NCBI RefSeq assembly: GCF_046119375.1
Contig: NW_027362761.1
Span: 663,958,001 to 664,022,000 of the forward strand
Origin: Phyllobates terribilis
Lineage: Eukaryota
Direction: 5' to 3'
DNA length: 64,000 nt
The position numbers were made by a program, and so were the translations under genes. Shown piece by piece: positions 1 through 64,000 of the stretch. Positions within the stretch are counted from its first letter, which is position 1. Every line of letters starts with the position of its first letter. The notes under the pieces were generated by a model. That model had not been told where the DNA came from. It saw nothing but the letters and a program-made list of their open reading frames with translations, and did no database searches.

Positions 1-2294
1 CAACCACATTCTTACCAATCAAAGGTCTCAGGATGTCACTAATAAGGTTCTGAAAAAATGCAGGTGCATTGGTAAGACCAAAAGGCATCACCAGATTCTC
101 AAAATGACCTACCGGAGTGTTAAAAGCAGTTTTCCATTCATCACCCTCCTTCACTCGTAACAAATTGTATGCCCCCCGGAGATCAATTTTGGAGAACCAC
201 TTGGCTCCCACTAACTGGTTAAACAAGTCAGGAATTAACGGCAATGGGTAGGAATTGTGTACGGTAATTTTATTAATTTCACGAAAATCCAGACATGGAC
301 GTAAACCGCCGTCCTTTTTTTTAACAAAGAAGAATCTAACTGCCACAGGCAACTTAGAAGGTCTAATGTGACCAGCAGCCAGGCTAGTCTCTATGTACTC
401 ATCCAAAGCCTTTCTTTCAGGGATGGTCAGATTAAACAAGCGACTTTTGGGAAGAGTAGCACCCAGAACAAACTCAATGGCGCAATCATAATCCCTATGA
501 GGAGGTAAAACTTGTGACTCCTCCTCCGAAAAAACCCTCCAAAAATCCTGAATAGGTACAGGTAATTCCCCTTTTTCCACAGCCGCAATGCGACCATAGC
601 AACATTTGTCATAGCACTTCGGACTCCAAGACTTAATCACATTAGTAAACCAGTCCAATAAAGGATTGTGCAGTTTTAACCAAGGCAATCCTAGAACAAC
701 TGGAGAGGGCAAATTATCCAAAACAACCAAGTCCAAAATTTCTTGGTGAACTCCATTGATAGGGAAAATGCAGCAGGCTTGTGAGTAATACATTTCAAAG
801 GAGTGTTATCAATTGCAACCACAGAAATAGGTGATGACAAAGGTTTGGATTTCAATTTAAGATTTTCCAAAAACCCTTTATCAATCACATTAAGTATTGA
901 ACCACAATCCACAAATACCTGAAATTCAATCAAATCTCCCTGCAGATTAGTACTCCCAGAAAGAAATACTCCTGCAGAGCGTAAACAAGCTATACGGGCG
1001 TAACTGACCTTTTTTTTTTCTTTACTTAAACGACGCTCACAATACTTAATCAAATGGTCAGCTTTACCACAATAAAGACATAAACCCTCGGCGAATCTCC
1101 GGTCTCTTTCCTGAGAGCGGAGTGATATTACCCCCTCCATTGGTTCTCCGCTGTCGGAGCAGAATTTCTGGGAACTAGGACCTGACGTTACAGGAGTTTT
1201 TACATCATTCACCCTGGACCTCAGTCTCCTGTCCACACGAACAGCTAACTGCATAGCTTCCTGCAGAGTCTCAGGTGCAGGGAATGCAATTAGCAAATCC
1301 TTAACCCTTTAACTCAGACCAGCAAGAAATAAACATCTCAGCGCAGAATCATTCCATTTAACTTCTGAGGCCCATCTCCTGAAGTGTGGGCAATAATTTT
1401 CAACATCATCTGACCCCTGATTCAAACGTCTAAGTTCTGATTCAGCAAATGAGATTCGATCAGGATCGTCATATATTAGCCCCATAGCAGAAAAAAATTC
1501 TTCAACAGAACTTAAACACGGATCATTAGGCTGGAGAGAAAAGGCCCAACCCTGTGGTTCTTTGCGCACAAGTGACATTATAAAACCAATGTGCTGTGAT
1601 TCATTCCCAGAGGATCTTGGTCTCAAATGAAAATATAACAAACAAGCATTTTTAAAGGAAAAAAAATCTTGCTGTTTACCATAAAAAACATCAGGCAGTC
1701 CTACCTTCGGTTTGACAAAATGCGCTCCAGGACAGCTACTCACGTGTTGCTGAAGCTCGGCCACCTCCAGAGACAATCTCTACAGACGTTGAGCCAAATC
1801 CTGGATGGAAACCATACTGATCCCCGAATTTCTTTCCTTTAAGTTTTTTGGGCTGGACTTACTGTTATGATCTGCAACAAGAACTAAGGAAAGATAGGGG
1901 AAAGCTGTTCCTACAGTAAGACTAAGCTGAATCCCTACGATGTAGCGGGCTGCCTGTTCCTAGTGAACAGACCCGCCTTAGTCCTCGGCTAGTCTGAACG
2001 AAGACCTATAGAATTAAGGGAGGGGTCCCTAAAAGAACTAAGGACTGGGACAAAAATGGGACACCTCCTAAACAGAAATTGTTGTAGAACACAAAAGACA
2101 CACTGACACAAAGTACTAGAGGTCCCAGAGGACCAAGCAAACTGACAGAGAAAGGCACCGAAGCACAAGGCTAGCAAAACAGTCAAACAACACTGAAGTC
2201 CAGCAAAGCCAGAAGGGCGGAGCTGGAATATATAGGCAGATGGTCACGTGACCGCAAAACACAAGATAGAAAAAACTAACAGGAGGGTTCTAAC
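1..2294 (-). mobile_element. Chromovirus-type Gypsy LTR retrotransposon, subfamily C (5' LTR, gag, protease, start of RT; runs off the window start; degenerate)
   Basis: Minus-strand ORFs 1309-1776 and 691-1296 encode gag (CLYCGKADHLIKYC zinc knuckle) and protease (VFVDCGS). RT motifs ([22 protein letters not shown]) read on the minus strand at about 130-330. A TAG lies early in gag and there are frameshifts. Homologous to the elements at 49489-64000. Confidence 0.95.
1863..2294 (-). repeat. 5' LTR of Gypsy subfamily C (432 bp)
   Basis: On the minus strand it reads TGTTAGAAC...CATAACA, followed by GTAAGTCCAGCC. The termini match the LTRs at 49489, 50069, 54619, 58987 and 63517. Confidence 0.92.
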
Positions 2295-2739
2295 ATAAAC
2301 AGACATCACACAATGATATCTGCCTGCACACACACACACTCACCATCCCCCGGCTCCCGTCATCCAGCTCCTCTCCGGTGGTAAGTAGCAGTGCAGGGCA
2401 CGCACTGCGTGACATCACACTGGCAGACATGGCCGCGCACAGGGCCATATCTCCTAGCTGTGACGCGGCCGAGCCAGCACACAGGGAAGTTAACAGGTGC
2501 AGTGCTGGCCCGGCTGAAGAAGAAGTAGCGGTCATGCGCCGTTGCTTGGGTCCATGAACAGGCGTGCACCCTTTCATGGACCAGGAACATATGACATCAC
2601 CACGCTCCCTCTTGATGGTCTTGATGAATCGAGGCACAAATGTTTGCATCAGACTGAAGAGAAGGCTATCTAAAAGTTACTTTGTAGTCTGTGAGTAGTG
2701 AGCAGGCTGTCCATCAGACTGCAGGGAAGTGGTTATAAT

Positions 2740-37398: not shown

Positions 37399-37424
37399 TA
37401 CAGGTGATGCAGTGACCATATCCA

Positions 37425-38485
37425 TACAGAATTATGGGCCCCTATGGTGCTGCTCCATACAGTATATGGGCCCCTATGGTGCTGCTCCTTACAGTATATG
37501 GGCCCCTATGGTGCTGCTCCATACAGTATATGGGCCCCTATGGTGCTGCTCCATACAGTATATGGGCCCCTATGGTGCTGCTCCATACAGTATATGGCCC
37601 CTATGGTGCTGCTCCATACAGTATATGGGCCCCCATACTGCTCCATACAGTATATGGGCCCCCATACTGCTCCATACAGTATATAGGCCCCCATTCTGCT
37701 CCATACAGTATATGGGCCCCCATGCTGCTCCATACTGAGTATGGGCCCCCATGCTGCTCCATACAGTATATGGGCCCCCATGCTGCTCCATACAATATAT
37801 GGGCCCCCATGCTGCTCCATACGGTATATGGGCCCCCATGATGCTGCTCCATACAGAATATGGGCCCCCATGATGCTGCTCCGTACAGAATATGGGCCCC
37901 TATGGTGCTGCTCCATAAAGTATATGGGCCCCTATGGTGCTGCTCCATACAGTATATGGGTCCCCATGCTGCTCCATGCAGTATATGGGCCCCCATGCTG
38001 CTCCATACAGTATATGGGCCCCCATGCTGCTCCATACAGTATATGGGCCCCAATGCTGCTCCATACGGTATATGGGCCCCCATGCTGCTCCATATGGTAT
38101 ATGGGCCCCCATGATGCTGCTCCATACAGAATATGGGCCCCCATGATGCTGCTCCGTACAGAATATGGGCCCCCATGGTGCTGCTCCATAAAGTATATGG
38201 GCTCCTATGGTGCTGCTCCATGCAGTATATGGGCCCCCATGCTGCTCCATGCAGTATATGGGCCCCCATGCTGCTCCATACAGTATATGGGCCCCCATGC
38301 TGCTCCATACAGTATATGGGCCCCAATGCTGCTCCATGCAGTATATGGGCCTCAATGCTGCTCCATGCAGTATATGGGCCCCAGTGCTGTCCCATACAGT
38401 ATATGGGCCCCCCATGCTGCTCCATACAGTATATGGGCCCCCATGATGTTGCTCCATACTGTATATTGGCCCCCATGATGCTGTA
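37425..38485. repeat. Minisatellite with 27-31-bp unit (CATACAGTATATGGGCCCC[C]ATG[GT]GCTGCTC), roughly 35 copies
   Basis: Directly visible periodicity; each unit contains the palindrome GGGCCC. Confidence 0.97.
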
Positions 38486-39086
38486 TACATTAAAAAAAAA
38501 AATCAAATCCTCACCTCTCCTGCTCCCTGGCTGCAGGTTCGGTGTAGTCAGCGTCTTCTGACTTCAGTTCTCAGAGCAGAGGGTGGTAGTGACGCCACCT
38601 CGCCCTCTGCCCTGAGACATCAGAAACAGAAGACGGTGACATCACTCGAGCTGCGGGGAGCAAGAAGAGGTGGGTATCTGAGAAGGAGGTGGGGGTGGCT
38701 CTCCCTCCCGGAGGGGGGGCTCTCCCTCCCCCGTCAAAATAGCATTCCTTCCCCCTGGGGCCCCAGCACTTACCTGAGTGCGCCGGGTGGTGAAGTGGCC
38801 GCCGTCCATGGGCATCACGGCGGGTCAGGTTCGCGTGCATGCGCTCCTGACTCCTGCGCTTTTAAAGGGGCATTTCCCTGCTCCACCCAGTCAGTGATTC
38901 CATCCTGGGGGAAAATTAGATGAATCTGCCATGATTTGTTTGCTACAAACCCATGCTGGCTCTGATTAATTTCTATATTGTTATCCAAGTACTTTAATAC
39001 TTGCTTTTTAGGTTCTACAATTACCTCTATCTCTTTCAGTACCTTAGGATGTCATTTGTTTGGACCAGGAGATTTAAATTCATTTA

Positions 39087-39476
39087 AATTAGCTACGGCT
39101 GTGTGCCCACGATGCGTTTTTTAAGCGAAACACTTAAAAAACGCATGGTAGAAGACCTGCCATGTTCATCGGAAGGTAAGTATAGATTTATTTTTTTATG
39201 TTTTGACATTCTTTACTGTCACACTATATAAATCCATGCCGGTTGCATGGATTTATATAGTGTGACCAAGTTGTCAAGCACTTTTCCAAGTCATGCTAAA
39301 ATCGCTTGGAAAGCGCTTGTCAACCCGCATGTGGAAATGCATGTGAAGAACGCTTCACTTACGCTTGTCCCTGGCAGGAAAAACGCATGTACAATCCGCA
39401 TGCTTTTTTTCTGCCAGAGAGATGCAGAAACGCTCAGGAAAAATCCGGAGCATTTCTGCATCGTGGGCACATAGCA
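39087..39476. mobile_element. Harbinger-like MITE
   Basis: Inverted termini GGCTGTGTGCCCACGATGC / GCATCGTGGGCACATAGC. Confidence 0.7.
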
Positions 39477-40089
39477 TAAGTGTTCCCTCACCATCTCTCT
39501 ATTTATACATAGCATGGATTATTTTATTTCTTCGAAAGCACAGTGAAGATCACTTCATGTTACATTTGCTTTGTTAGTGAACACAGATGCAAAATAACAA
39601 TTTAAAAGTTCGTCCTTCTCAGTCCCGGGAATTTTACTGGTACCCCGCCAGGCCAGTCTGACCCTGCCTGAGACTATGTGTGTTGTGTATCTAATTATTT
39701 TATAGGATTTTTGCAATTTTAAATTATGTCAAGTAAAAGTTAAGTTTTAGCTTAGCACTCTATGCTACATAGTTGTTTTCATTGTTTTGCAACGTTTTTT
39801 CCACATGAAAATGCTCACAAAACTGCGTCAGAAGCGCACATAAATTATTCATTCTTTTTCCTGCCAACCCTCTGGTTTTTGCTGCAGAAAAAAATGTTCA
39901 AAAACGCCACTTGTGACCATTCCCTTAGACTGCATGTGATTGGTGCGCTCAGACAGCTCTGTTGGACTTAATTATCTTCAAAGCCAGTATTTATAAGCTA
40001 GTTAGTGTCATCTGAGTGCTGTCAGAGTGGACAGGTGAGTCTAATTAATCAACGGTTAGGCCAGTTTGACACATTAATAATAATTACCG

Positions 40090-40620
40090 TTATACATTTT
40101 TTTAAAAGTATTTTGTCTTGATAAAGCATAGATATGTGTTTTTCTATAATTTTCCTAATAGCTATAAATTGGGGATTGTAATTAGACACAAAGATAATGT
40201 TATCTAAGCTATGGGTTTCTTTGTTTTCTTTCTTTCAAAATATCCTGTATGGTGTATTATATTATTTGGTCTCTTGAGCATCCAATTATGGTATTTTCTA
40301 ATCTGTAATCTTTGATTAACCAACCTAGCTTCCTGTTGGAATCTAATATCTGATGTTGTATTCCTTTTTGTACTTATTAGTTCACCAATATGGATATTTT
40401 TAATAGTTTGTTCAGGGGAACATGAGGTTGCTAGTAAAATAGAATTGGTTGCTGAACTTTTTCTGTTAGGAATGGGAGAGTTCATTAGAGAAATGTCAAA
40501 AAATCTATTTGTGTTTCTTTAATGTTATAAGTGAATTTTAGTTTCAAGTCTTTATTATTGAAATATTCAACGAAATCAACTGCCATTTCTCTGGTGCCAT
40601 CCCTATCAGGTCATCTATAT
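40090..40620 (-). mobile_element. Penelope-like fragment
   Basis: Minus strand reads IIFVSNYNPQFIAIRKIIEKH, the RT-endonuclease linker motif also seen near 33500. Confidence 0.6.
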
Positions 40621-41752
40621 AGCGAAGTTATAATGGTTAAAAGTTGACCAGCGATTACTGCTTTATCCATCAAAATTTGCAAAACCATTTTTTTTAGGGA
40701 CCGCATCATATTTGAAGTCACTTTGAGGGGGTATGAGAGAAAATACAAAATAGTGACACCAGTCTTAAAACTGCACCCCTAAAGGTGCTCAAAACCACAT
40801 TCAAGAAGTTAATTAACCCTTCAGGTGCTTCACAGGAACTGAAGCAATGTGGGAAAAAAAATGAACTTTTAACTTTTTTTTTCACTAAAATTTTACTTTA
40901 GACCTATTTTAAAAGGAGAAATTGGACCCCAAAAGTTTTTGTGCTATTTCTTCGAGTATGCTGATACCCCATATGTGGGGAAAAAACATTGTTTGGGCGC
41001 ATGGCAGGGCTCGGAAGGGAAGGAGCACCGTTTGACTATTTCAAAGCAAAACTCGCTGGAATCAAGAACGGACCCCATATCGCGTTTGGAGAGCCCCTGA
41101 TGTGCCTAAACAGTGGAAACCCCCCACAAGTGACCCCATTTTGGAAACTAGACCCCTTAAGGAACTTATCTAGATGTGTGGTGAGCACTTTGGACCCCCA
41201 AGTGTTTCACAAACGTTTATAATGGAGAGCTGTGGAAAAAAAACACTTTTTTCCACAAAGATTATCTTTAAGCCGCAATTTTTTTATTTTTACAAGGGTA
41301 ACAGAAGAAATTGGACCCCACAAGTTGTTGTGCAGTTTCTCCTGAGTACACTGATATATCATATGTGGGGGAAAACCATTGTTTGGGCGCACGTCAGGGC
41401 TCGGAAAGGAAGGAGTGACGTTTTGGAATGCAGACTTTGATGGAATGGTTGATATTCATCTCCTTTCTTTGAAGAAGCGACGCTCTAGATGACGGAGCGT
41501 GTGGTTTTCCTTTCCTCCAACTCCAGGCTACATAGAGGTTGAATACGACTAACCCATATCCTCTTAAAGGGACCGTTCAGCTACATAAACCCAAGCAGAG
41601 CATGCCAGAGTGCATATAGCCATTTCTAACAAATGTGTGGTGACTTACAGCTCAGGCCTTGTCATTGATCCTTTTTCTTATTTGTATTCTGACACCAGTT
41701 TCCATCATAGAGCATAAATCGGCATTATTTCATTCCCTTTAATACTTATATA

Positions 41753-43252
41753 CAGTACAGACCAAAAGTTTGGACACACCTTCTCATTTAAAGATTTTTC
41801 TGCGTTTTCATGACTTTGAAAATTGTACATTCACACTGAAGGCATCAAAACTATGAATTAACACATGTGGAATTATATCGTTAACAAAAAAGTGTGAAAC
41901 AACTGAAAATATGGTGTGCCCTGTCAGGTTTAATAAGTGGGATTTTTTGCCTTATAAATGGGGTTGGGACCATCAGTTGTGTTGTGCAGAAGTCAGATGG
42001 ATACACAGCTGATAGTCCTACTGAATAGACTGGTAGCTGTTTTTTTCTTGCCATAATACAAATTCTAAGTAAAGAAAAACGAGTGGCCTTCGTTACTTTA
42101 AGAAATTAAGGTCAGTCAGTCCGAAAAAATTGGGCAAACTTTGAATGTGTCCCCAAGTGCAGTTGCAAAAACCATCAAGCGCTACAAAGAAACTGGCTCA
42201 CATGAGGACCGCCCCAGGAAAGGAAGACCAAGAGTCACCTCTGCTTCTGAGGATAAGTTTATCCGAGTCACCAGCCTCAGAAATCGCAGGTTAAAAGCAG
42301 CTCAGATTAGAGACCAGGTCAATGCCACACAGAGTTCTAGCAGCAGACACATCTCTACAACAACTGTTAAGAGGAGACCTTGTGCAGCAGGCCTTCATGG
42401 TAAAATAGCTGCTAGGAAACCACTGCTAAGGACAGGCAACAAGCAGAAGAAACTTGTTTGGGCTAAAGAACACAAGGAATGGATATTAGAACAGTGGAAA
42501 TCTGTGCTTTGGTCTGATGAGTCCAAATTTGAGATCTTTGGTTCCAACCACCGTGTCTTTGTGCGACGCAGAAAAGGTGAACGGATGGACTCTACATGCC
42601 TGGTTCCCACCGTGAAGCATAGAGGAGGAGGTGTGATGGTGTGGGGGTGCTTTGCTGGTGACACTGTTGGGGATTTATTCAAAATTGAAGGCATACTGAA
42701 CCAGCATGGCTACCTCAGTATCTTGCAGCGGCATGCTATTCCATCCGGTTTGCTTTTAGGTAGACCATCATTTATTTTTCAACAGGACAATGACCCCAAA
42801 CACACCTCCAGGCTGTGTAAGGGCTATTTGACCAAGAAGGAGAGTGATGGGGTGCTACGCCAGATGACCTGGCCTCCACAGTCACCAGATCTGAACCCAA
42901 TTGAGATGGTTTGGGGTGATCTGGACCGCAGAGTGAAGGCAAAAGGGCCAACAAGTGCTAAGCGTCTCTGGGAACTCCTTCAAGATTGTTGGAAGACCAT
43001 TTCCGGTGACTACCTCTTGAAGCTCATCAAGAGAAGGCCAAGAGTGTGCAAAGCAGTCATCAAAGCAAAAGGTGGCTACTTTGAAGAACCTAGAATATGA
43101 CATATTTTCAGTTGTTTCACACTTTTTTGTTAAGTATATAATTCCACATGTGTTAATTCATAGTTTTGATGCCTTCAGTGTCAATGTACAATTTTCATAG
43201 TCATGAAAAATCTTTAAATGAGAAGGTGTGTCCAAACTTTTGGTCTGTACTG
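41753..43252 (+). mobile_element. Tc1-like transposon with a long open DD34E transposase frame (42141-43100) but no usable start codon
   Basis: TA-flanked TIRs CAGTACAGACCAAAAGTTTGG. Motifs WSDESKF, QQDNDPKH and [11 protein letters not shown] are intact. Confidence 0.95.
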
Positions 43253-49488: not shown

Positions 49489-50124
49489 TGTTAGAACCCT
49501 CTTGTTAGTTTTTCTATTTTTGCTGGTCACATGACTTTTTGCCTATATAATCCAGCTCCGCCCTCCTGGCCTTGCTGGACTTCAGTGTTACTTTTACTCT
49601 TAAGCTAGCCAGGTGCCTTGTACCTTACTCTGTAGTTTGCTTGGTCTTTTGACCACTAGTACTTCTGTTTGTTTGTCTTTGCTCTGCTACAATTTCTGCT
49701 AGGAGGTGTCCAACTATATCCCAGTCCTTAGTTCTTGTAGGGACCCCTCCCTTATATCTATAGGTCTGCGTTCAGACTAGCCGAGGACTTAGGAGGGTCT
49801 GTTCACAAGGATCAGGTCCCCCGCTGCATCGTAGGGAATCAGCTTAGTCCTATTGTAGGGACAGTTTTCCTTAGTGTTTGTAGCAGTTCATAACAGTAAG
49901 TCCAGCCCAAAAATAAAACACTCTAAGGGAAAAAAAATAGAAATCCTGATTTCAGCATGGTGTCGGTTCAGGAGTTGGCTCAACGCCTGCAGGGACTGTC
50001 TTTGGAGGTGGCCGAGCTCCAGCAACACGTGAGTAGCTGTCCTGGAGCGCATTTTGTCGAACCGAAGGTGTTAGAACCTTGCTCTTAGGTTTTTTCCTTT
50101 GCTGGTCACATGACCTTGTTGGCC

Positions 50125-50163
50125 TATTTAATCCTGCTCCGCCCTTCTGGCTTTGCTGGACTT
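50125..50163 (+). promoter_or_regulatory. LTR TATA box and predicted transcription start (GCTGGACTT); equivalent sites at 49544/49574 and 2234/2204 (minus strand)
   Basis: TATTTAA or TATATA lies 30 nt upstream of the PBS-complementary 9-mer in all three LTR subfamilies. The start site itself is inferred. Confidence 0.7.
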
Positions 50164-50536
50164 CATTGTATATCTACTTTCTAGCTAGCCTGTGCTCTGT
50201 GTCTTGCTCTGTTAGTTTGCTTGGTCTACGGACCTCTATGTTCTATATATTTTGTTTGTTCGTCTGTCTGCTACTATTTCTGTTAGGAGGTGTCCCATAT
50301 TCCTCCCAGTCCTTAGTACTTGTAGGGATTCCTTCCCCACATCTATAGGTCTCCGTACAGACTAGCTTAGGACTTTAGCAGGTCTGATCGCAGGATCAGG
50401 TCCCCTGTTACATCGTAGGGATTAAGCTGAGTTCTATCGCAGGGACAGATCTCCTCTCTTTCCTTAGCTCTGGTAGCAGAACATAACAGTAAGTCCAGCC
50501 TGCAAATTCTCTAAGGAAAGATTTTTCTGTTCCATC

Positions 50537-53500
50537 ATGGTGTCGGTTCAGGATTTGGCTCATCGCCTGCAGGGACTCTCTCTGGAGGTGGCCGAGCTCC
50601 GTCAGCACGTGAGTAACTGTCCTGGAGCACATTTCTTGGAGCCTAAGGTATGTTTGCCGGATTTATTTTTTGGTGAACACCGAGAATTTTTTTCATTTAA
50701 AAATGCTTGCTTATTGTATTTTCGTTTGAGACCCAAGTCCTCTGGGGATGAATCCCAGAGCGTAGGGTTCATAATGTCACTTTTGCGCAAAGAGCCTCAG
50801 GAGTGGGCCTTTTCTTTGCAACCTAGTGATACATGCTTCAGATCAGTGGATAGTTTTTTTTCTGCTTTGGGCCTATTATATGATGATCCTGACCGTGTCG
50901 CATCAGCTGAGACTGAGTTGAGACGTTTAAAACAAGGATCAGGTAATGTGGAAAAATATTGTACTCATTTCCGTCGGTGGTCTACTCAAACAGGGTGGAA
51001 CGATTCTGCTCTGAAAAGTCTATTTCTTGCTGGGCTCAGTGAAAGGGTTAAAGACCTGCTAATTGCTTATCCTACACCTGAAGATTTGCAACAGGCTATG
51101 CAATTAGCTATACGGGTGGATAGAAGACTGCGTGCAAGGGTTAATGAGAGCAAATCCTCTGCTATGTCAGTTTCTGGTTATGAGAATGTGTGTACTAACA
51201 GTGGTGAACCGATGGAGATTGGATCGGTGGCACCTCGCTCTCAAGAAAAAGACCGTCGATTTTTTGAAGGCTTGTGTTTCTATTGCGGAAAATCTGGTCA
51301 TTTGATAAAAGCCTGTGAGCTTCGTATGAAGAAAGAAAAAAAAATGGTCAGTCACGCCCGTATTGCCTGTTTAAATTCCAAGGGTATATTTTTAGCTGCT
51401 TCCACGATTGCTCAGGAAAAAGTAATGGAATTTCGGGTGTTTGTTGATTGCGGGTCTACTCTGAATGTAATTGATGGGGGATTCTTGGAAAGACTCAATT
51501 TAAAACCCGAACCTTTGTCATCCCCCATTGCTGTGGTTTCTGTGGATGGTTCCCCTTTGAAGAATATTACTCTCAAGGTCAGTGAATTTCCTCTCACTAT
51601 TAATGGTGTTCACCATGAGAAATTGGATTTGGTAGTGTTGAATAACTTGCCTTCTCCAGTAATATTGGGATTGCCCTGGTTAAAATTTCACAATCCTGTA
51701 CTGGATTGGTCTACCAGTGAAATTAAATCCTGGAGCCATAAATGTTATGACAAGTGTTGTAACGGGCGTATTGCAGCTTTGGATAGGGGAGAATTGCCTG
51801 TTCCTATTCAGGATTTTTGGAGAGTTTTTTCTGAGAAGGAATCGCAGGTTTTGCCTCCCCATAGAGACTATGATTGCTCTATTGAATTTGTCCCTGGAGC
51901 GACTCTTCCTAAAAGTCGTTTATTTAACCTTACTATTCCTGAGAGGAAGGCTTTGGAGGAATACATACAGACAAGTTTGGCCGCCGGTCACATTAGGCCC
52001 TCTAAGTCTCCTGTGGCGGTTGGATTTTTTTTTGTAAAAAAAAAAGGACGGCGGTTTACGTCCTTGTCTGGATTTTCGTGAGATTAACAAAATTACTGTG
52101 CGCAATCCTTACCCACTGCCATTGATTCCTGATCTGTTTAACCAGTTAATGGGGGCCAAGTGGTTCTCTAAAATTGACCTTAAGGGGGCATACAATCTGT
52201 TGCGCATGAAGGAGGGTGACGAATGGAAGACTGCTTTTAACACTCCTGTGGGTCATTTTGAGAATCTGGTTATGCCTTTTGGTCTTACCAATGCTCCTGC
52301 ATTTTTTCAGAATCTTATTAATGACATCCTTGGGCCTTTGATCGGCAAAAATGTGGTTGTGTATTTGGATGACATTTTGATTTATTCGCCGGATCTGGAG
52401 TCTCATTGGCGGAGCGTACGTGAGGTATTACAGTTATTAATGGACAATTCGCTTTTTGCTAAGCTGGAGAAATGTGAATTCGCTGTACAGAGAATTAGTT
52501 TTTTGGGTTACATTATCTACAGCGAAGGTTTTGAGATGGACCCGGTTAAAGTTCAAGCTATACAGGAATGGCCTAGGCCTATTGGTTTGAAATCGATACA
52601 GAGGTTTTTAGGTTTCGCCAATTATTACAGAAAATTCATAAAAAATTTTTCTAGTATTGTCAAACCTCTGACCGATCTCACCAGGAAAGGTGCTGATGCG
52701 GTTCAGTGGTCTGCTGAGGCCATTGAAGCTTTTGTGTATCTCAAGGAGAGGTTCACCTCTGCTCCCATCCTTATGCAGCCTGATGTGACTAAGCCGTTTT
52801 TGGTTGAGGTTGATGCTTCCTCTGTGGGGGTTGGAGCAGTATTGTCTCAGGATAATGGGGATGGATTACATCCCTGTGCCTTTTTTTCAAAAAATTTTTC
52901 GGAGACTGAACTGAATTACGATATTGGTAATCGGGAATTATTGGCTATTAAGCTCGCGTTTGAACACTGGCGCCACTTCTTGGAAGGTGCGGAATTTCCC
53001 GTTCAGGTTCTTACGGATCATAAAAATCTGATATATCTTGATGCTGCCAAGCGCCTGAATGCCCGTCAGGCTAGGTGGGCACTGTTTTTCTCGCTGTTTA
53101 ATTTCTCCGTTACTTACATCCCTGGTACTAAGAATGTTAAGGCGGATGCCTTGTCTCGCAGTTTTTCTCCCATAGTCGGTGCTGAGAAAGAGGAGAACAT
53201 TTTACAAGAAGGTGTTGTGATAGCTGCTTTAGACTCCGTTTTGGAAGATGAGATTCTTAAAGCACAGGAGAATGCCCCTTCTAACACTCCTCATGGGAGG
53301 TTGTTTGTGCCTGGGACCTTTAGGAGAGATTTGTTTGTTGAGTGTCACGAATCTCGGTTGGCAGGTCATCCCGGAATCTCTGAGACCAAGAGACTGGTGG
53401 GTCGCAGTTTTTGGTGGCCTGGATGGCAGAAGGAAGTCATTAAGTGGGTGCGCCAATGTACTATATGTGCTAGATCTAAGTCCTCACATACTCCTGCTGC

Positions 53501-54605
53501 GGGGTTGCTTTGTCCTTTGGAGGTCCCCAGTGCTCCTTGGACACATTTGGCTATGGACTTTATAACTGACCTTCCCCCCTCTGAGGGTTTTACTGTCATC
53601 TGGGTGGTCGTGGACCGTTTTAGCAAGATGTGTCACTTGGTTCCCTTCGTCAAACTGCCCTGCGCTAAAACTCTCGCTAAGGCCTTTGTCAAGGAAATTG
53701 TCAGACTTCATGGCGTTCCTACTGACATTGTTTCTGATAGGGGTCCTCAGTTCGTGGCTCTTTTTTGGCGTGCCTTTTGTGACAGGTTGGGAATTCATTT
53801 GTCGTTTTCGTCCGGATATCATCCTGAATCTAATGGCCAGACAGAAAGGAAAAACCAGGATGTTGAGCAGTTCTTGCGTTGTTTTGTGGCAGACAATCAA
53901 GAGGGGTGGTCTGAGTTTCTGCCACTTGCTGAATTTGCTCTGAACAATCATACATCTTCTTCTGCTGGTTGTTCGCCTTTTTTTTGTTGTTCTGGGAGAC
54001 ATCCGTCGTTTGGGTCGTTCTCCAAGTTGGGATCTGCCGTGCCTGAGGAGGAGAATTTTTCCGGTGATTTGGAGAGAGTTTGGACGGATGTGCGTGGTAA
54101 TCTTCAGGAGGCCAACAGAAAATCTAAAGACTACTTTGATAGGAAACGACAGGAGGTTTTGTTCGCTGTTGGTGACATGGTTTGGTTGTCCTCTAGGAAT
54201 CTGCGGTTGAGGATTCCTTCTAAGAAATTGGGTCCCAAGTTTGTAGGGCCCTTTAAGGTGCTTCAAGTTGTCAACCAATCTGCTGTTAGGTTGGAGGTTC
54301 CTACCTCCTGGAGAATTAATCCTGTATTTCATGTCTCTCTGTTAAAAAAAGCTGTTGTGTCGGATGGTGACGCCTCTGCCTCTGTTCCTCCGGTGGTGGA
54401 GGACGGGGAATATGAAATTTCTCGCATCCTTGACTCTAGACGGTATAGAGGTAGTTTACAGTATCTTGTGGCCTGGAAAGGTTTCGGACCCGAGGATAAC
54501 TCTTGGGTGAGGTCAGATGATGTTTCCGCGTCCAGACTTATCAGAGCGTTTCACAGGAGATTTCCTGATAAGCCTGGTCCTAGGGGATCCGGAGGATCCT
54601 CTTAG
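50537..54605 (+). CDS. Gag-Pol polyprotein of element A (gag, CCHC, protease, RT, RNase H, integrase, chromodomain) with a single +1 frameshift at about 52036-52045
   Basis: ORFs 50537-52081 and 52098-54605. Motifs [65 protein letters not shown] and [33 protein letters not shown]. Confidence 0.93.
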
Positions 54606-55042
54606 AAGGGGGGGTACTGTTAGAACCTTGCTCTTAGGTTTTTTCCTTTGCTGGTCACATGAGCTTGTTGGCCTATTTAATCCTGCTCCGCCCTTCTGGC
54701 TTTGCTGGACTTCATTGTATATCTACTTTCTAGCTAGCCTGTGCTCTGTGTCTTGCTCTGTTAGTTTGCTTGGTCTACGGACCTCTATGTTCTATATATT
54801 TTGTTTGTTCGTCTGTCTGCTACTATTTCTGTTAGGAGGTGTCCCATATTCCTCCCAGTCCTTAGTACTTGTAGGGATTCCTTCCCCACATCTATAGGTC
54901 TCCGTACAGACTAGCTTAGGACTTTAGCAGGTCTGATCGCAGGATCAGGTCCCCTGTTACATCGTAGGGATTAAGCTGAGTTCTATCGCAGGGACAGATC
55001 TCCTCTCTTTCCTTAGCTCTGGTAGCAGAACATAACAGAAGG

Positions 55043-58000
55043 TAGGACTTCCAGATTTTTTTTGTATGGTAAACGGCAAGATTTTTTTTCCTTTAGAAAC
55101 GCTTGTTTATTATATTTTCGTTTAAGACCCAGATCCTCGGGAGTGAATCACAGCGCATTGGGTTTATAATGTCACTTTTGCGCAAAGAACCACAGGGATG
55201 GGCCTTTTCTCTACAACCTAATGATCCGTGTTTTAGATCTGTGGAAGATTTTTTTTCTGCTATGGGGTTGTTGTATGATGATCCTGATCGATTCTCATCT
55301 GCTGAAACTGAATTAAGATGTTTGAAGCAGGGATCAGGTGATGTGGAAAATTATTGTACATACTTCAGAAGATGGTCAGCTGAAGTGGAATGGAATGACT
55401 CAGCATTAAAATGTTTGTTTCTTGATGGTCTAGGTGAAAGGGTTAAGTATCTGTTGATTGCCTTCCCAAAACCTGGAACCTTGCAGGAGGCAATGCAATT
55501 AGCCATACGTGTGGACAGGAGACTGCGTGCTAGGAGTAATGAAGAGAGATTTACTGCTATGGCAGCTCCTAGTTTTTAGAGGGTCTGTTCGGAGGGTGGA
55601 GAACCGATGGAGATTGGGGCGATGTCACCCCACTCTCAGGAAAAAGACCGCAGGTTTGCTAAAGGATTGTGTTTTTATTGCGGTAAATCTGACCACTTTA
55701 TTAAGAACTGTGTGCTTCGTTTGAACAAAGAAAAAAAAAAAAGAGGTCAGTTATGCCCGCATAGCGTGTTTAAACTCAAAAGGAGTATTTCTTTCTGGAA
55801 GCACCTCATTCCAGGAGGAGTTGATTGAATTTCGGGTATTTGTGGATTGTGGTTCCACACTCAATGTGATTGATGAGGATTTTTTGGAAAAATTTAAATT
55901 AGAATCCAAACTTTTGTCATCTCCTATTTCTGTGGTTGCTGTTGATGGCTCTCCCTTGAAAGGTATTACTCACAAGGTTTTTGAATTTCCCCTCACCATT
56001 AATGGTATCCACCAAGAGAATTTGGATTTGGCGGTATTAAATAATTTGCCTGCTCCAGTGGTTTTGGGGTTACCTTGGTTAAAATTGCACAATCCTGTAC
56101 TGGACTGGTCTACCAATGAAATTAAGTCTTGGAGTCCTAAGTGTTATGATAGATGTTGTAACGGTCGCATTGCTGCTGTGGAAAGAGGGGAATTACCTGT
56201 ACCTATTCAGGATTTTTGGAGGGTTTTTTCTGAGGAGGAGTCGCAAGTTTTGCCTCCTCATAGGGACTATGATTGTACTATTGAGTTTGTCCCTAGAGCA
56301 ACTCTTCCCAAGAGTCGCTTATTTAATCTTACTATCCCTGAGAGAAAGGCCTTGGAGGAATACATACAGACAAGCTTGGCCGCCGGTCACATTAGACCTT
56401 CTAAGTCACCTGTGGCTGTTGGATTTTTTTTTGTAAAAAAAAAGGACGGCGGTTTACGTCCATGTCTGGACTTTCGCGAAATTAATAAAATTACAGTACG
56501 CAATTCCTACCCACTGCCATTAATTCCTGACTTGTTCAACCAGTTAGTGGGGGCCAAGTGGTTCTCTAAGATTGATCTCCGGGGGGCATACAATTTGTTA
56601 CGTATGAAGGAAGGTGATGAGTGGAAAACTGCTTTTAACACTCCAGTGGGTCATTTTGAGAATCTGGTGATGCCCTTTGGTCTTACCAACGCACCAGCGT
56701 TTTTTCAGAACCTTATTAATGACATCCTAAGACCGTTGATCGGTAAGAATGTGGTGGTGTATTTGGATAACATTTTGATTTTTGCGCCGGATCTGGAGTC
56801 TTATTGGCAGAGCGTACGTGAGGTGTTGCAGTTGTTAAGCGACAATTCGCTTTTTGCTAAGTTGGAGAAATGTGAGTTTGCTGTGCAGAGAATTAGTTTT
56901 TTGGGCTACATTATCTCCAGCGAGGGCTTTGAGATCGACCCAGTGAAGGTTCAGGCGGTGCAGGAATGGCCAAGGCCTATTGGTTTGAAACCAATACAGA
57001 GATTTTTGGGTTTCGCCAATTATTACCGAAAATTCATTAAGAATTTTTCTATAATTGTTAAGCCGCTGACCGATCTCACCAGGAAAGGTGCGAATACGGT
57101 TCAGTGGACTACTGAGGCCATTGAAGCTTTTGTGTATCTCAAGGAGAGGTTCAGTTCTGCCCCCATCCTTATGCAGCCTGATGAGACCAAGCCTTTTTTG
57201 GTCGAGGTTGATGCGTCTTCGGTGGGGGTCGGTGCTGTTTTGTCTCAGGAAAACAAGGATGGAGTACATCCCTGTGCTTTTATTTCAAAAAAATTTTCTG
57301 AGACCGAACTTAATTACGATGTCGGTAATCGGGAATTGCTGGCGATTAAACTCGCATTTGAACATTGGCGTCATCTCTTGGAAGGTGCTAAATTTCCCAT
57401 TCAGGTTTTTACTGATCATAAGAATCTGATCTATCTTGATGCTGCCAAGCGCTTGAATGCCTGTCAAGCTAGGTGGGCACTTTTTTTTCCGCGGTTTAAT
57501 TTTTCTGTTACTTACATCCCGGGTACCAAGAATGTAAAAGCTGATGCTATATCTCGCAGTTTTTCTCCCATGGTTGGTACCGAGGAGGAGGAGAGCATTT
57601 TACAGGAAGGTGTTGTGATAGCAGCATTGGATCCGTTTTGGAAGATGGGATTCTGAAAGCCCAGGAGGATGCCCCATCTAACACTCCCCATAGGAGGTTG
57701 TTTGTGCCTAGGAACTTTAGGAGAGAGTTGTTTGTGGAGTGTCATGAGTCTCGGTTGGCAGGTCATCCAGGAATTTCGGAGACTAAGAGACTTGTAGGTC
57801 GCAGTTTTTGGTGGCCTGGGTGGCAGAAGGAAGTCATTAAGTGGGTGCTTCAATGTACTGTGTGTGCTAGATCTAAGTCTTCACATGCTCCTGCTGCGGG
57901 GTTGCTTTGCCCTCTGGAGGTTCCTAGTGCTCCTTGGACGCATCTTGCTATGGATTTTATTACTGACCTTCCTGCCTCTGAGGGTTTCACTGTTATCTGG

Positions 58001-58986
58001 GTGGTCGTGGACCGTTTTAGCAAGATGTGTCACTTGGTTCCCTTCATCAAACTACCCTGCGGCAGGACACTCGCTAAGGCTTTTGTTAAAGAAATTGTCA
58101 GGCTCCATGGCGTTCCTACCGACATTGTTTCCGATAGGGGACCTCAGTTCGTGGCTCGTTTTTGGCGTGCCTTTTGTGACAGGTTGGGAGTCCATTTGTC
58201 ATTTTCGTCTGGTTATCATCTTGAGTCTAATGGATAGACAGAAAGAAAGAACCAGGATGTTGACAATCAAGAGGGGTGGTCTGAGTTTCTGCCACTGGCT
58301 GAATTTGCTCTTAACAACCATACATCCTCTTTTGCTGGGTGTTCTCCTTTTTTTTGTTGTACTGGGAGACATCCGTCGTTTGGGTCATTCTCCAAATTGG
58401 TATTGGCTGTGCCGGAGGAGGAGAATTTTTCCGGTGATTTGGAGAGAGTTTGGACTGATGTACGTAGTAACCTCCAAGAGGCTAACAAAAAATCGAAGAG
58501 GTACTTTGACAGGAAACGTCAAGAGGTTTTGTTTACTGTTGGTGACATGGTTTGGTTGTCCTCTAGGAATCTGCAGTTGAGGATTCCTTCTAAGATATTG
58601 GGCCCGAAGTTTGTAGGTCCTTTTAAGGTGCTTCAGGTAGTTAACCAATCTGCTGTTAGGTTGGAGGTGCCTACTCCTGGAAGATTAATCCGGTGTTTCA
58701 TGTTTCCTTATTGAAAAAAGCTGATGTTTCTGATAGGGACGCCACTGTCTCTGTTCCTCCGGTGGAGGAAGACGGTGAATATGAAATTTCTCGCATTCTT
58801 AATTCTAGATGGCATAGAGGGAGATTGCAGTATCTCGTCGCTTGGAAAGGTTTCGGTCCCGAGGATAACTCCTAGGTAAGGGCGGATGATGTCTCTGCTC
58901 CTAGACTTGTCGGAGTGTTTCACAGGAGGTTTCCTGATAGACCTGGGCCTGGATGATCCGGGGGATCCTCATAGAAGAGGGAGTAC
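55043..58986 (+). pseudogene. gag-pol of B unit 1 (portion after element A), multiply disrupted
   Basis: TAG at 55577-55579, A12 frameshift near 55740, YLDN instead of YLDD, frameshift near 57635, stop at 58235, 27-bp deletion near 58262. Confidence 0.93.
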
Positions 58987-59459
58987 TGTTAGAACTCTCC
59001 TGTTAGTTTTTTCTATTTTTGCTGGTCACATGACTTTTTGCCTATATAATCCAGCTCTGCCCTCCTGGCCTTGCTGGACTTCAGTGTTACTTTTACTCTT
59101 AAGCTAGCCAGGTGTCTTGTACCTTACTCTGTAGTTTGCTTGGTCTTTTGACCACTAGTACTTCTGTTTGTTTGTTTGTCTTTGCTCTGCTACAATTTCT
59201 GCTAGGAGGTGTCCAACTATATCCCAGTCCTTAGTTCTTGTAGGGACCCCTCCCTTATATCTATAGGTCTGCGTTCAGACTAGCCGAGGACTTAGGAGGG
59301 TCTGTTCACAAGGATCAGGTCCCCCGCTGCATCGTAGGGAATCAGCTTAGTCCTATTGTAGGGACAGTTTTCCTTAGTGTTTGTAGCAGTTCATAACAGT
59401 AAGTCCAGCCCAAAAATAAAACACTCTAAGGGAAAAAAAATAGAAATCCTGATTTCAGC

Positions 59460-62400
59460 ATGGTGTCAGTTCAGGAGTTGGCTCAACGCCTGCAGGGACT
59501 GTCTTTGGAGGTGGCCGAGCTCCAGCAACACGTGAGTAGCTGTCCTGGAGCGCATTTTGTCGAACCGAAGGTAGGACTTCCAGATTTTTTTTGTATGGTA
59601 AACGGCAAGATTTTTTTTCCTTTAGAAACGCTTGTTTATTATATTTTCGTTTAAGACCCAGATCCTCGGGAATGAATCACAGCGCATTGGGTTTATAATG
59701 TCACTTTTGCGCAAAGAACCACAGGGATGGGCCTTTTCTCTACAACCTAATGATCCGTGTTTTAGATCTGTGGAAGATTTTTTTTCTGCTATGGGGTTGT
59801 TGTATGATGATCCTGATCGATTCTCATCTGCTGAAACTGAATTAAGATGTTTGAAGCAGGGATCAGGTGATGTGGAAAATTATTGTACATACTTCAGAAG
59901 ATGGTTGGCTGAAGTGGAATGGAATGACTCAGCATTAAAATGTTTGTTTCTTGATGGTCTAGGTGAAAGGGTTAAGTATCTGTTGATTGCCTTCCCAAAA
60001 CCTGGAACCTTGCAGGAGGCAATGCAATTAGCCATACGTGTGGACAGGAGACTGCGTGCTAGGAGTAATGAAGAGAGATTTACTGCTATGGCAGCTCCTA
60101 GTTTTTAGAGGGTCTGTTCGGAGGGTGGAGAACCGATGGAGATTGAGGCGATGTCACCCCACTCTCAGGAAAAAGACCGCAGGTTTGCTAAAGGATTGTG
60201 TTTTTATTGCGGTAAATCTGACCACTTTATTAAGAACTGTGTGCTTCGTTTGAACAAAGAAAAAAAAAAAAGAGGTCAGTTATGCCCGCATAGCGTGTTT
60301 AAACTCAAAAGGAGTATTTCTTTCTGGAAGCACCTCATTCCAGGAGGAGTTGATTGAATTTCGGGTATTTGTGGATTGTGGTTCCACACTCATTGTGATT
60401 GATGAGGGTTTTTTGGAAAAATTTAAATTAGAATCCAAACTTTTGTCATCTCCTATTTCTGTGGTTGCTGTTGATGGCTCTCCCTTGAAAGGTATTACTC
60501 ACAAGGTTTTTGAATTTCCCCTCACCATTAATGGTATCCACCAAGAGAATTTGGATTTGACGGTATTAAATAATTTGCCTGCTCCAGTGGTTTTGGGGTT
60601 ACCTTGGTTAAAATTGCACAATCCTGTACTGGACTGGTCTACCAATGAAATTAAGTCTTGGAGTCCTAAGTGTTATGATAGATGTTGTAACGGTCGCATT
60701 GCTGCTGTGGAAAGAGGGGAATTACCTGTACCTATTCAGGATTTTTGGAGGGTTTTTTCTGAGGAGGAGTCGCAAGTTTTGCCTCCTCATAGGGACTATG
60801 ATTGTACTATTGAGTTTGTCCCTAGAGCAACTCTTCCCAAGAGTCGCTTATTTAATCTTACTATCCCTGAGAGAAAGGCCTTGGAGGAATACATACAGAC
60901 AAGCTTGGCCGCCGGTCACATTAGACCTTCTAAGTCACCTGTGGCTGTTGGATTTTTTTTTGTAAAAAAAAAGGACGGCGGTTTACGTCCATGTCTGGAC
61001 TTTCGCGAAATTAATAAAATTACAGTACGCAATTCCTACCCACTGCCATTAATTCCTGACTTGTTCAACCAGTTAGTGGGGGCCAAGTGGTTCTCTAAGA
61101 TTGATCTCCGGGGGGCATACAATTTGTTACATATGAAGGAAGGTGATGAGTGGAAAACTGCTTTTAACACTCCAGTGGGTCATTTTGAGAATCTGGTGAT
61201 GCCCTTTGGTCTTACCAACGCACCAGCGTTTTTTCAGAACCTTATTAATGACATCCTAAGACCGTTGATCGGTAAGAATGTGGTGGTGTATTTGGATAAC
61301 ATTTTGATTTTTGCGCCGGATCTGGAGTCTTATTGGCAGAGCGTACGTGAGGTGTTGCAGTTGTTAAGCGACAATTCGCTTTTTGCTAAGTTGGAGAAAT
61401 GTGAGTTTGCTGTGCAGAGAATTAGTTTTTTGGGCTACATTATCTCCAGCGAGGGCTTTGAGATCGACCCGGTGAAGGTTCAGGCGGTGCAGGAATGGCC
61501 AAGGCCTATTGGTTTGAAACCAATACAGAGATTTTTGGGTTTCGCCAATTATTACCGAAAATTCATTAAGAATTTTTCTATAATTGTTAAGCCGCTGACC
61601 GATCTCACCAGGAAAGGTGCGAATACGGTTCAGTGGACTACTGAGGCCATTGAAGCTTTTGTGTATCTCAAGGAGAGGTTCAGTTCTGCCCCCATCCTTA
61701 TGCAGCCTGATGAGACCAAGCCTTTTTTGGTCGAGGTTGATGCGTCTTCGGTGGGGGTCGGTGCTGTTTTGTCTCAGGAAAACAAGGATAGAGTACATCC
61801 CTGTGCTTTTTTTTCAAAAAAATTTTCTGAGACCGAACTTAATTACGATGTCGGTAATCGGGAATTGCTGGCGATTAAACTCGCATTTGAACATTGGCCG
61901 TCATCTCTTGGAAGGTGCTAAATTTCCCATTCAGGTTTTTACTGATCATAAGAATCTGATCTATCTTGATGCTGCCAAGCGCTTGAATGCCTGTCAAGCT
62001 AGGTGGGCACTTTTTTTTCCGCGGTTTAATTTTTCTGTTACTTACATCCCGGGTACCAAGAATGTAAAAGCTGATGCTATATCTCGCAGTTTTTCTCCCA
62101 TGGTTGGTACCGAGGAGGAGGAGAGCATTTTACAGGAAGGTGTTGTGATAGCAGCATTGGATCCGTTTTGGAAGATGGGATTCTGAAAGCCCAGGAGGAT
62201 GCCCCATCTAACACTCCCCATAGGAGGTTGTTTGTGCCTAGGAACTTTAGGAGAGAGTTGTTTGTGGAGTGTCATGAGTCTCGGTTGGCAGGTCATCCAG
62301 GAATTTCGGAGACTAAGAGACTTGTAGGTCGCAGTTTTTGGTGGCCTGGGTGGCAGAAGGAAGTCATTAAGTGGGTGCTTCAATGTACTGTGTGTGCTAG

Positions 62401-63486
62401 ATCTAAGTCTTCACATGCTCCTGCTGCGGGGTTGCTTTGCCCTCTGGAGGTTCCTAGTGCTCCTTGGACGCATCTTGCTATGGATTTTATTACTGACCTT
62501 CCTGCCTCTGAGGGTTTCAGTGTTATCTGGGTGGTCGTGGACCGTTTTAGCAAGATGTGTCACTTGGTTCCCTTCATCAAACTACCCTGCGGCAGGACAC
62601 TCGCTAAGGCTTTTGTTAAAGAAATTGTCAGGCTCCATGGCGTTCCTACCAACATTGTTTCCGATAGGGGACCTCAGTTCGTGGCTCGTTTTTGGCGTGC
62701 CTTTTGTGACAGGTTGGGAGTCCATTTGTCATTTTCGTCTGGTTATCATCTTGAGTCTAATGGATAGACAGAAAGAAAGAACCAGGATGTTGACAATCAA
62801 GAGGGGTGGTCTGAGTTTCTGCCACTGGCTGAATTTGCTCTTAACAACCATACATCCTCTTTTGCTGGGTGTTCTCCTTTTTTTTGTTGTACTGGGAGAC
62901 ATCCGTCGTTTGGGTCATTCTCCAAATTGGTATTGGCTGTGCCGGAGGAGGAGAATTTTTCCGGTGATTTGGAGAGAGTTTGGACTGATGTACGTAGTAA
63001 CCTCCAAGAGGCTAACAAAAAATCGAAGAGGTACTTTGACAGGAAACGTCAAGAGGTTTTGTTTACTGTTGGTGACATGGTTTGGTTGTCCTCTAGGAAT
63101 CTGCGGTTGAGGATTCCTTCTAAGATATTGGGCCCGAAGTTTGTAGGTCCTTTTAAGGTGCTTCAGGTAGTTAACCAATCTGCTGTTAGGTTGGAGGTGC
63201 CTACTCCTGGAAGATTAATCCGGTGTTTCATGTTTCCTTATTGAAAAAAGCTGATGTTTCTGATAGGGACGCCACTGTGTCTGTTCCTCTGGCGGAGGAA
63301 GACGGTGAATATGAAATTTCTCGCATTCTTAATTGTAGATGGCATAGAGGGAGATTGCAGTATCTCGTCGCTTGGAAAGGTTTCGGTCCCGAGGATAACT
63401 CCTGGGTAAGGGCGGATGATGTCTCTGCTCCTAGACTTGTCGGAGTGTTTCACAGGAGGTTTCCTGATAGACCTGGGCCTGGATGA
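59460..63486 (+). pseudogene. gag-pol of B unit 2, with the same lesions as unit 1 plus a 1-bp insertion near 61898
   Basis: Near-identical to unit 1 at an offset of about 4530 bp. Confidence 0.93.
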
Positions 63487-64000
63487 TCCGGGGGATCCTC
63501 ATAGAAGAGGGAGTACTGTTAGAACTCTCCTGTTAGTTTTTTCTATTTTTGCTGGTCACATGACTTTTTGCCTATATAATCCAGCTCTGCCCTCCTGGCC
63601 TTGCTGGACTTCAGTGTTACTTTTACTCTTAAGCTAGCCAGGTGCCTTGTACCTTACTCTGTAGTTTGCTTGGTCTTTTGACCACTAGTACTTCTGTTTG
63701 TTTGTTTGTCTTTGCTCTGCTACAATTTCTGCTAGGAGGTGTCCAACTATATCCCAGTCCTTAGTTCTTGTAGGGACCCCTCCCTTATATCTATAGGTCT
63801 GCGTTCAGACTAGCCGAGGACTTAGGAGGGTCTGTTCACAAGGATCAGGTCCCCCGCTGCATCGTAGGGAATCAGCTTAGTCCTATTGTAGGGACAGTTT
63901 TCCTTAGTGTTTGTAGCAGTTCATAACAGTAAGTCCAGCCCAAAAATAAAACACTCTAAGGGAAAAAAAATAGAAATCCTGATTTCAGCATGGTGTCGGT

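What the first reader, a model, noticed from the sequence alone, without database searches (positions are those of the whole stretch)
50069..50500. Self-priming Gypsy family: the PBS is complementary to the LTR's own predicted transcript 5' end
Seen: after each 5' LTR the sequence is GT-AAGTCCAGC (50491-50499, 49898-49906, and 1852-1860 on the minus strand), not a TGG tRNA-type PBS. Its exact reverse complement GCTGGACTT lies inside the LTR (50155-50163, 49574-49582, 2196-2204), exactly 30 nt after the TATA box start in all three subfamilies, although their LTR bodies differ substantially. In B the pairing can extend past a small loop (TGTTA/TAACA). Known: S. pombe Tf1 primes reverse transcription by folding its mRNA 5' end onto the PBS, and this has been proposed for vertebrate Tf1/sushi-group elements. 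Inference: this is a young, tRNA-independent self-priming lineage in an amphibian.
Basis: partly seen in the sequence, partly recalled or inferred. Interest (0 to 1): 0.7.

Follow-up and report, generated by a model that had tools for sequence, protein, structure and literature searches.

The report
Self-priming frog Gypsy retrotransposon family
This very abundant frog jumping gene has no ordinary tRNA docking site; the nine bases where DNA copying starts pair with the predicted first nine bases of its own RNA, and related families keep the pairing with different letters, so it likely primes itself, a trick already known from yeast and already proposed for this group.

Summary
Observation confirmed. 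Three subfamilies of a Gypsy chromovirus carry GT-AAGTCCAGC after the 5' LTR. Its exact complement lies in the LTR, 30 nt after a TATA-like box. The family has 26,229 exact LTR/PBS junctions in this genome. In 30 of 36 elements from four integrase clades, 9-11 nt from PBS base 3 match their own LTR exactly (control 9 of 648), in ten different sequences. The motif ranks 3rd of 395 LTR windows for conservation. Best reading: Tf1-type self-priming (0.85).

Against or open: the transcription start is unmapped. No compensatory change was found inside this family (0 of 81 PBS-variant copies). The flanking 'pretzel' helices, including TGTTA/TAACA, are mostly not beyond chance. Host tRNA-Gln(TTG) nt 27-34 matches 8 PBS bases in the same register.

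Self-priming is described in print as the common feature of the Tf1/sushi group, so this is a new member of a known kind. The scan has noted the same signature before, in this genome and in others.

The parts
50069..50488 (+). 5' LTR of element A (420 nt, TG...CA)
   Evidence: 1 mismatch to the 3' LTR
50125..50131 (+). TATA-like box (TATTTAA), 30 nt before the predicted +1
   Evidence: same spacing in 28 of 30 family copies chosen by PBS alone
50155..50163 (+). predicted self-primer GCTGGACTT (predicted RNA nt 1-9)
   Evidence: conservation rank 3 of 395 windows; pair probability with the PBS 0.99
50489..50490 (+). 2-nt spacer GT between LTR end and PBS; mirrors the AC before the 3' LTR
50491..50499 (+). 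primer-binding site AAGTCCAGC (no TGG)
50457..50467 (+). U5 arm of a possible third helix (11 bp with 50511-50521)
   Evidence: z -4.5 in A; not significant in B (p 0.165) or C (p 0.075)
50511..50521 (+). leader arm of the possible third helix
50537..52081 (+). gag (with a CCHC knuckle) and aspartic protease; the frame is broken by a frameshift near 52040-52080 in this copy
52038..54605 (+). RT, RNase H, integrase (H2C2, rve, SH3_Tf2-1) and chromodomain
   Evidence: all over Pfam cut-offs
54604..54617 (+). polypurine tract, T, then 2-nt spacer AC
54618..55037 (+). 3' LTR of element A
50064..50068 (+). target-site duplication GAAGG (second copy 55038-55042); A is inserted in the gag of the first B unit
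49489..49906 (+). first B LTR (49489-49895), primer motif 49574-49582, PBS 49898-49906
58987..59409 (+). second, shared B LTR with primer motif 59073-59081 and PBS 59401-59409
63517..63939 (+). third, shared B LTR with primer motif 63603-63611 and PBS 63931-63939; the array goes on to a fourth LTR beyond the window
1852..2295 (-). 5' LTR of element C (2295-1863), primer motif 2204-2196, PBS 1860-1852

Best explanation
These elements are Gypsy chromoviruses whose 9-nt primer-binding site is the exact complement of a motif in their own LTR, and they likely start reverse transcription with their own RNA: transcription is predicted to begin at that motif, which would fold onto the PBS and be cut free to serve as the primer. 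Shown here: the domains, the complement, its fixed register (from the third base after the LTR), its fixed place 30 nt after a TATA-like box, its conservation, and matched changes across sister lineages. Inferred from Tf1: start at the G, cleavage by the element's RNase H after nt 9 (nt 10 in sister lineages), and extension as minus-strand strong-stop DNA. Inferred from the 2-nt spacers at both ends: the linear cDNA would carry two extra bases at each end (AC-TG...CA-GT), to be trimmed by integrase.
For: (1) None of 36 elements has TGG in the first five bases after the LTR, so a mature tRNA 3' CCA end cannot pair there. (2) 30 of 36 have an exact LTR complement of 9-11 nt anchored at PBS base 3; control windows reach 9 nt in 9 of 648. 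Two of the six misses differ only by one G-U pair. (3) The 30 matches fall into ten sequences that differ at up to 7 of 10 positions. They lie in four clades with 100% support and 40-53% integrase identity to A (one long-branch row 31%), with fish elements between them. Single-base matched changes separate close subfamilies: GCGCTCAGAT/GCGCTCTGAT; GCCTGAGTAT/GCTTGAGTAT/GCTAGAGTAT/GCTTGTGTAT. In a 12x12 cross matrix only a lineage's own LTR gives 9-10 nt. (4) A TATA-like hexamer starts exactly 30 nt upstream in 26 of the 30. (5) In 60 family copies the motif is 99.4% identical against a mean of 84%; the flanking 9-mers are 77% and 68%. (6) RNA folded from the predicted +1 pairs motif and PBS with probability 0.99, 0.96 and 0.99 in A, B and C. 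(7) Self-priming is given as the common feature of the Tf1/sushi group, and in Tf1 RNase H cuts between bases 11 and 12.
Against: No transcription start was mapped. Inside the A/B/C family, 0 of 81 alignable copies with a variant PBS had the matching change in the LTR motif (27+27+27 of 90 loci). They look like private post-insertion changes, so all covariation comes from sister lineages. The flanking helices that Tf1 needs are not robust: third helix p<=0.05 in 6 of 36, second in 4 of 36. In the global fold of 8 sister elements the primer:PBS pair had probability 0.0 in two and 0.32 in one. A host tRNA-Gln 5' half matches 8 bases in the same register. The LTR 3' ends were set by hand at the nearest ACA followed by G within a few bases of the LTR-pair boundary, so the first spacer base G is partly built in.
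Confidence: 0.85

Rival explanations
1. The A/B/C family is primed, wholly or partly, by a 5' half of host tRNA-Gln(TTG) cut in the anticodon loop; the LTR motif is then a relic or a backup.
For: Host tRNA-Gln(TTG) genes carry CTGGACTT at nt 27-34, ending at the first anticodon base. This pairs with 8 PBS bases from base 3, the same register as the self-primer (168 genomic pattern matches). No within-family compensatory change was found that would exclude it.
Against: The match is 8 bp against 9; the ninth PBS base pairs with the LTR motif but not with the tRNA. The LTR motif itself is strongly conserved, which tRNA priming does not require. Nine sister primer types match their own LTRs and reached at most 7 nt against the intron-free tRNAs found (only about 7 isoacceptors sampled). 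Their ends (GAT, TAT, CAA, CAT) do not fit an anticodon loop with U33 (recalled rule).
Confidence: 0.06
2. The 5' end of one genomic RNA primes on the PBS of the second, co-packaged RNA (in trans), or the pairing mainly serves dimerisation or packaging.
For: Sequence alone cannot tell cis from trans. The fold-back helices flanking the central duplex are weak in most elements.
Against: The cis fold is strongly favoured in A, B and C. The fixed register 2 nt from the LTR end marks the site as the start of DNA synthesis. Tf1 is described as folding back on itself.
Confidence: 0.07
3. Chance complementarity, or a conserved initiator that happens to match.
For: Nine bases is short. The motif sits where an initiator would be conserved anyway.
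Against: 30 of 36 against 9 of 648, ten different sequences each matching its own LTR, fixed register and spacing.
Confidence: 0.02

Closest known systems
Tf1/Tf2 of Schizosaccharomyces pombe (with Tj1, Tosmo1-3, Tcry1)
   Same: Gypsy chromovirus; no tRNA PBS; PBS complementary to the RNA 5' end; single gag-pol ORF as in Tf1/Tf2 (1375-aa open frames in many of the 150 A copies listed). Sources: 10.1101/2022.12.06.519325 section 28 read whole; PMC7175516 and PMC4600332 passages.
   Different: The primer is 9 nt (10 in sisters) against 11 in Tf1. Gag has a CCHC knuckle, which the fission-yeast elements lack. The PBS is set 2 nt off the LTR, with a matching 2-nt spacer after the PPT; that Tf1 lacks such trimmed overhangs is recalled, not checked. 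The three-helix structure is only partly supported here. Tf1 priming is shown by experiment; this is not.
[quoted passage not shown]
   Same: Vertebrate chromodomain-bearing Gypsy elements (PMC2774666 passages). Amn-san is the most abundant LTR type in a frog genome, about 5 kb, mostly with a chromodomain (PMC4131045 passages). Nearest named proteins are from frogs (Xenopus 58%) and fish (about 50%). Self-priming was proposed for vertebrate members by Butler et al. 2001 (seen only as cited; the paper is not held).
   Different: Non-yeast members mostly use a -1 frameshift between gag and pol; this family has one ORF. Copy number is at least 26,229 junctions against about 780 Amn-san elements in X. 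tropicalis. No labelled sushi or Amn sequence was available for a tree.
Plant Tcn1-clade chromoviruses
   Same: Predicted self-priming, Tf1/sushi related (PMC6317226 passages).
   Different: Moss and club-moss hosts; not compared in sequence here.

Membership tests
Ty3/Gypsy chromovirus | LTRs TG...CA, 5-bp TSD, order gag-PR-RT-RH-IN | tested here: met
   best solved relative Ty3 Gag-Pol, E 2.6e-122
Ty3/Gypsy chromovirus | chromodomain at the integrase C-terminus | tested here: met
   PF00385 at aa 792-841, 43 bits against cut-off 25.1
Tf1/sushi group | no tRNA-type (TGG) PBS | tested here: met
   0 of 36 elements
Tf1/sushi group | PBS complementary to a motif in the element's own LTR at the predicted RNA 5' end | tested here: met
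   30 of 36 exact, ten sequences, 26 of 30 at TATA+30
Tf1/sushi group | the motif is the real 5' end of the RNA | tested here: inconclusive
   the raw RNA runs offered do not hold the element; contigs cannot show a start
Tf1/sushi group | three-duplex 'pretzel' structure | tested here: inconclusive
   central duplex strong; third helix significant in A and 5 others of 36, second helix in 4 of 36
Tf1/sushi group | RNase H cleavage releases the primer | not testable with these tools
   RNase H domain present; activity needs an experiment
V-clade (Amn/sushi) | monophyly with Sushi-ichi/Amn elements on an RT-IN tree | tested here: inconclusive
   integrase tree interleaves frog and fish chromodomain elements but holds no labelled sushi, Amn or Tf1 reference; assignment rests on domains, host and neighbours

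The most novel reading that the evidence does not exclude
The A/B/C family, the only lineage found here with a 9-nt primer and present in over 26,000 copies, has a dual-use PBS: besides its own RNA end it accepts the 5' half of host tRNA-Gln(TTG) in the same register, so stress-induced tRNA cleavage would switch its replication on or block it.
Probability: 0.06. Interest if true: 0.65.

Novelty: new member of a known kind. Interest (0 to 1): 0.27.

Why it matters
In the papers read, self-priming is shown by experiment for yeast Tf1 and only inferred for vertebrate relatives. Ten matched primer/PBS pairs in one frog genome are good comparative support for that inference. They predict the RNA start and cut site to the base, in a family of at least 26,229 copies, so a plain 5'-end or small-RNA library could test it. 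If each junction heads a full 4.5-kb unit, that is roughly 0.1 Gb or 1% of this assembly (my estimate). The mechanism itself is not new.

Tried and rejected
RNA evidence: no RNA holder was listed. Raw RNA runs X10-X12 gave 1, 1 and 6 partial reads, so no start could be mapped. Contig run X1 holds the family but cannot show starts.

Within-family coupled changes: three pattern searches found 241, 141 and 69 variant junctions. Of 90 loci fetched, 81 had an alignable LTR site and 0 were coupled. The idea that the primer is copied back into the PBS therefore gets no support from this family.

Second and third helices: mostly not significant.

Pfam PF03732 search: the 30 loci fetched were a different gag type and were dropped.

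Panel: 60 ten-kb regions were fetched. 33 were used; 27 were dropped because no usable LTR pair defined the 5' LTR end or the element was of another kind (L152 has a TGG PBS and no pol match). In four kept rows (L122, L129, L150, L239) one boundary was approximate. L221, L235 and L236 were left out of the tree.

Host tRNA set: only about 7 isoacceptors were recovered, so a full tRNA-fragment comparison was not made.

Primary Tf1 papers and Butler 2001 are not held. Searches for self-priming in vertebrate or amphibian elements listed no paper with an experimental test or a covariation analysis in frogs. Subscription journals and supplements were not covered, so this does not show absence from print.

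Full report
Observation. The motif and its complement lie exactly where stated in the three subfamilies, here called A, B and C. Each 5' LTR ends ...TAACA, followed by GT and AAGTCCAGC. The complement GCTGGACTT starts 30 nt after a TATA-like hexamer. The LTRs are 76-81% alike. A 9-mer match in one LTR has an expectation of about 0.002.

What the elements are. A spans 50069-55037 with LTRs differing at 1 of 420 nt and a GAAGG target duplication. It sits inside the first unit of a B tandem array of four LTRs and three internal regions. C lies on the minus strand at the window start. Pfam finds gag, protease, RT, RNase H, integrase, SH3_Tf2-1 and a chromodomain. A's frame is broken near 52040-52080, while many of the 150 A copies listed have one 1375-aa frame. 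The nearest named proteins come from frogs, then fish at about 50%. The exact 19-nt LTR/PBS junction occurs 26,229 times in G000, with 0 for the reversed control.

Covariation. I fetched 60 ten-kb regions around Pfam hits. I kept the 33 in which an LTR pair defined the 5' LTR end and added A, B and C. In 30 of these 36, an exact complement of 9-11 nt starting at the third base after the LTR lies in the element's own LTR. The same test on downstream windows reaches 9 nt in 9 of 648. Of the six misses, two differ by one G-U pair, two by one mismatch, and two are more decayed. The matches fall into ten sequences, all starting GC and differing at up to 7 of 10 positions; 26 of 30 lie exactly 30 nt after a TATA-like hexamer. 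A lineage's PBS matches only its own LTR. On an integrase tree the types occupy four clades with 100% support, with fish elements between them, and single-base matched changes separate close subfamilies (three rows left out). Copies within a clade are not independent, so the evidence is ten types in four clades, not 30 events. LTR ends were fixed by hand at the nearest ACA before a G, which builds in the first spacer base.

Inside the A/B/C family. In 30 copies chosen by PBS alone, 28 have the intact motif. Over 60 copies the motif window ranks 3rd of 395 for conservation (0.994 against a mean of 0.84; flanks 0.77 and 0.68). Copies with a changed PBS are rare (241, 141 and 69 against 26,229). 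None of the 81 alignable ones, of 90 fetched, has the matching change in the LTR. So there is no direct compensatory evidence in this family. An earlier scan note (e1-8631615) proposes for another family that the primer is written back into the PBS; that gets no support here.

Structure. Folded from the predicted +1, motif and PBS pair with probability 0.96-0.99 in A, B and C. In eight sister elements the values are 0.0, 0.0, 0.32, 0.61, 0.68, 0.86, 0.97 and 0.98. A U5-leader helix, which would cross the central one as in the Tf1 'pretzel', is strong in A (11 bp, z -4.5), drawable in B and C, and significant in 6 of 36. The pretzel is therefore unproven.

Ends. Both ends carry two extra bases: AC between the polypurine tract and the 3' LTR, and GT between the 5' LTR and the PBS. 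All 34 elements with both ends have a 2-nt spacer after the tract (AA 17, AC 16, AG 1). This fits a primer whose 3' end sits at PBS base 3 and a cDNA with 2-nt extensions trimmed by integrase (inference).

tRNA rival. No element has TGG after the LTR (0 of 36), which excludes a mature tRNA 3' end. Host tRNA-Gln(TTG), however, has CTGGACTT at nt 27-34, ending in the anticodon. A 5' half would pair with 8 PBS bases in the same register. It fails at the ninth base, does not explain the conserved LTR motif, and has no counterpart for the sister types among the roughly 7 isoacceptors recovered. It remains possible as a helper or competitor for this one family.

Expression. No RNA holder was listed, and the raw RNA runs do not hold the element. 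The start site is predicted only.

Comparison with what is known. In Tf1 the first 11 RNA bases pair with the PBS and RNase H cuts between bases 11 and 12 (PMC7175516, passages). Self-priming is described as the common feature of the monophyletic Tf1/sushi group, with a three-duplex structure (10.1101/2022.12.06.519325, section 28 read whole). It is 'implicated' from fungi to vertebrates (PMC4600332, passages; PMC6317226, passages). V-clade is the vertebrate branch (PMC2774666, passages), and Amn-san is the most abundant LTR type in a frog (PMC4131045, passages). PMC3601003, PMC5006619, PMC11117352 and PMC10680173 were seen as passages and added nothing decisive. Butler 2001 and the primary Tf1 papers were not held. 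No supplements were read. The family works like Tf1. Its membership of V-clade rests on domains, host and neighbours, not on a labelled tree.

Verdict. A real, well-supported self-priming signature (0.85) in a very abundant, young frog chromovirus family. It is a new member of a known kind. The scan noted the same signature earlier in this genome and elsewhere. Interest 0.27.

Noticed in passing
window 49489 to beyond 64000 (to window-equivalent 68462, L172): B is a head-to-tail array of three units sharing four LTRs (97-99.8% alike), with one TSD CATAC at the outer ends, so it likely inserted or expanded as a unit. A polypurine tract directly precedes the 5' LTR in 6 of 108 family loci. A copies also lie 4.53 kb apart four times at G000:C1:20.00-20.02 Mb.
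   Followed up: partly
L031-L060 (small unplaced contigs, e.g. G000:C5587, C4373): The best PF03732 hits all lie on small contigs. Their gag looks like plant Athila-type gag (resemblance recalled, not tested), which suggests plant DNA among the unplaced contigs. The top PF24626 hits also lie on such contigs.
   Followed up: no
L121-L139, L221-L240: Two sister clades have AAACATGGCGGC or AAAATGGAGGT directly before the predicted +1, resembling a YY1 site (recalled).
   Followed up: no
G000:C13:48.28-48.95 Mb: Long tandem array of tRNA-Gln(TTG) genes with a period of about 1.78 kb. A tRNA array with a period of about 1.05 kb lies at C1:817.2-817.9 Mb.
   Followed up: no
window 35773-43209: Nested inverted repeats: 742-nt arms 96% complementary, 5.7 kb apart, enclosing 29- and 32-nt tandem repeats at 37352-38514; possibly a DNA transposon or foldback element.
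   Followed up: no
window-equivalent -2232 to -2535 (L171): The 3' LTR of element C is cut after about 305 of 433 nt; the part kept is 99% identical to the 5' LTR.
   Followed up: partly
window 55097-63244: The B internal regions are broken into several short frames, largely at the same places in successive units.
   Followed up: no
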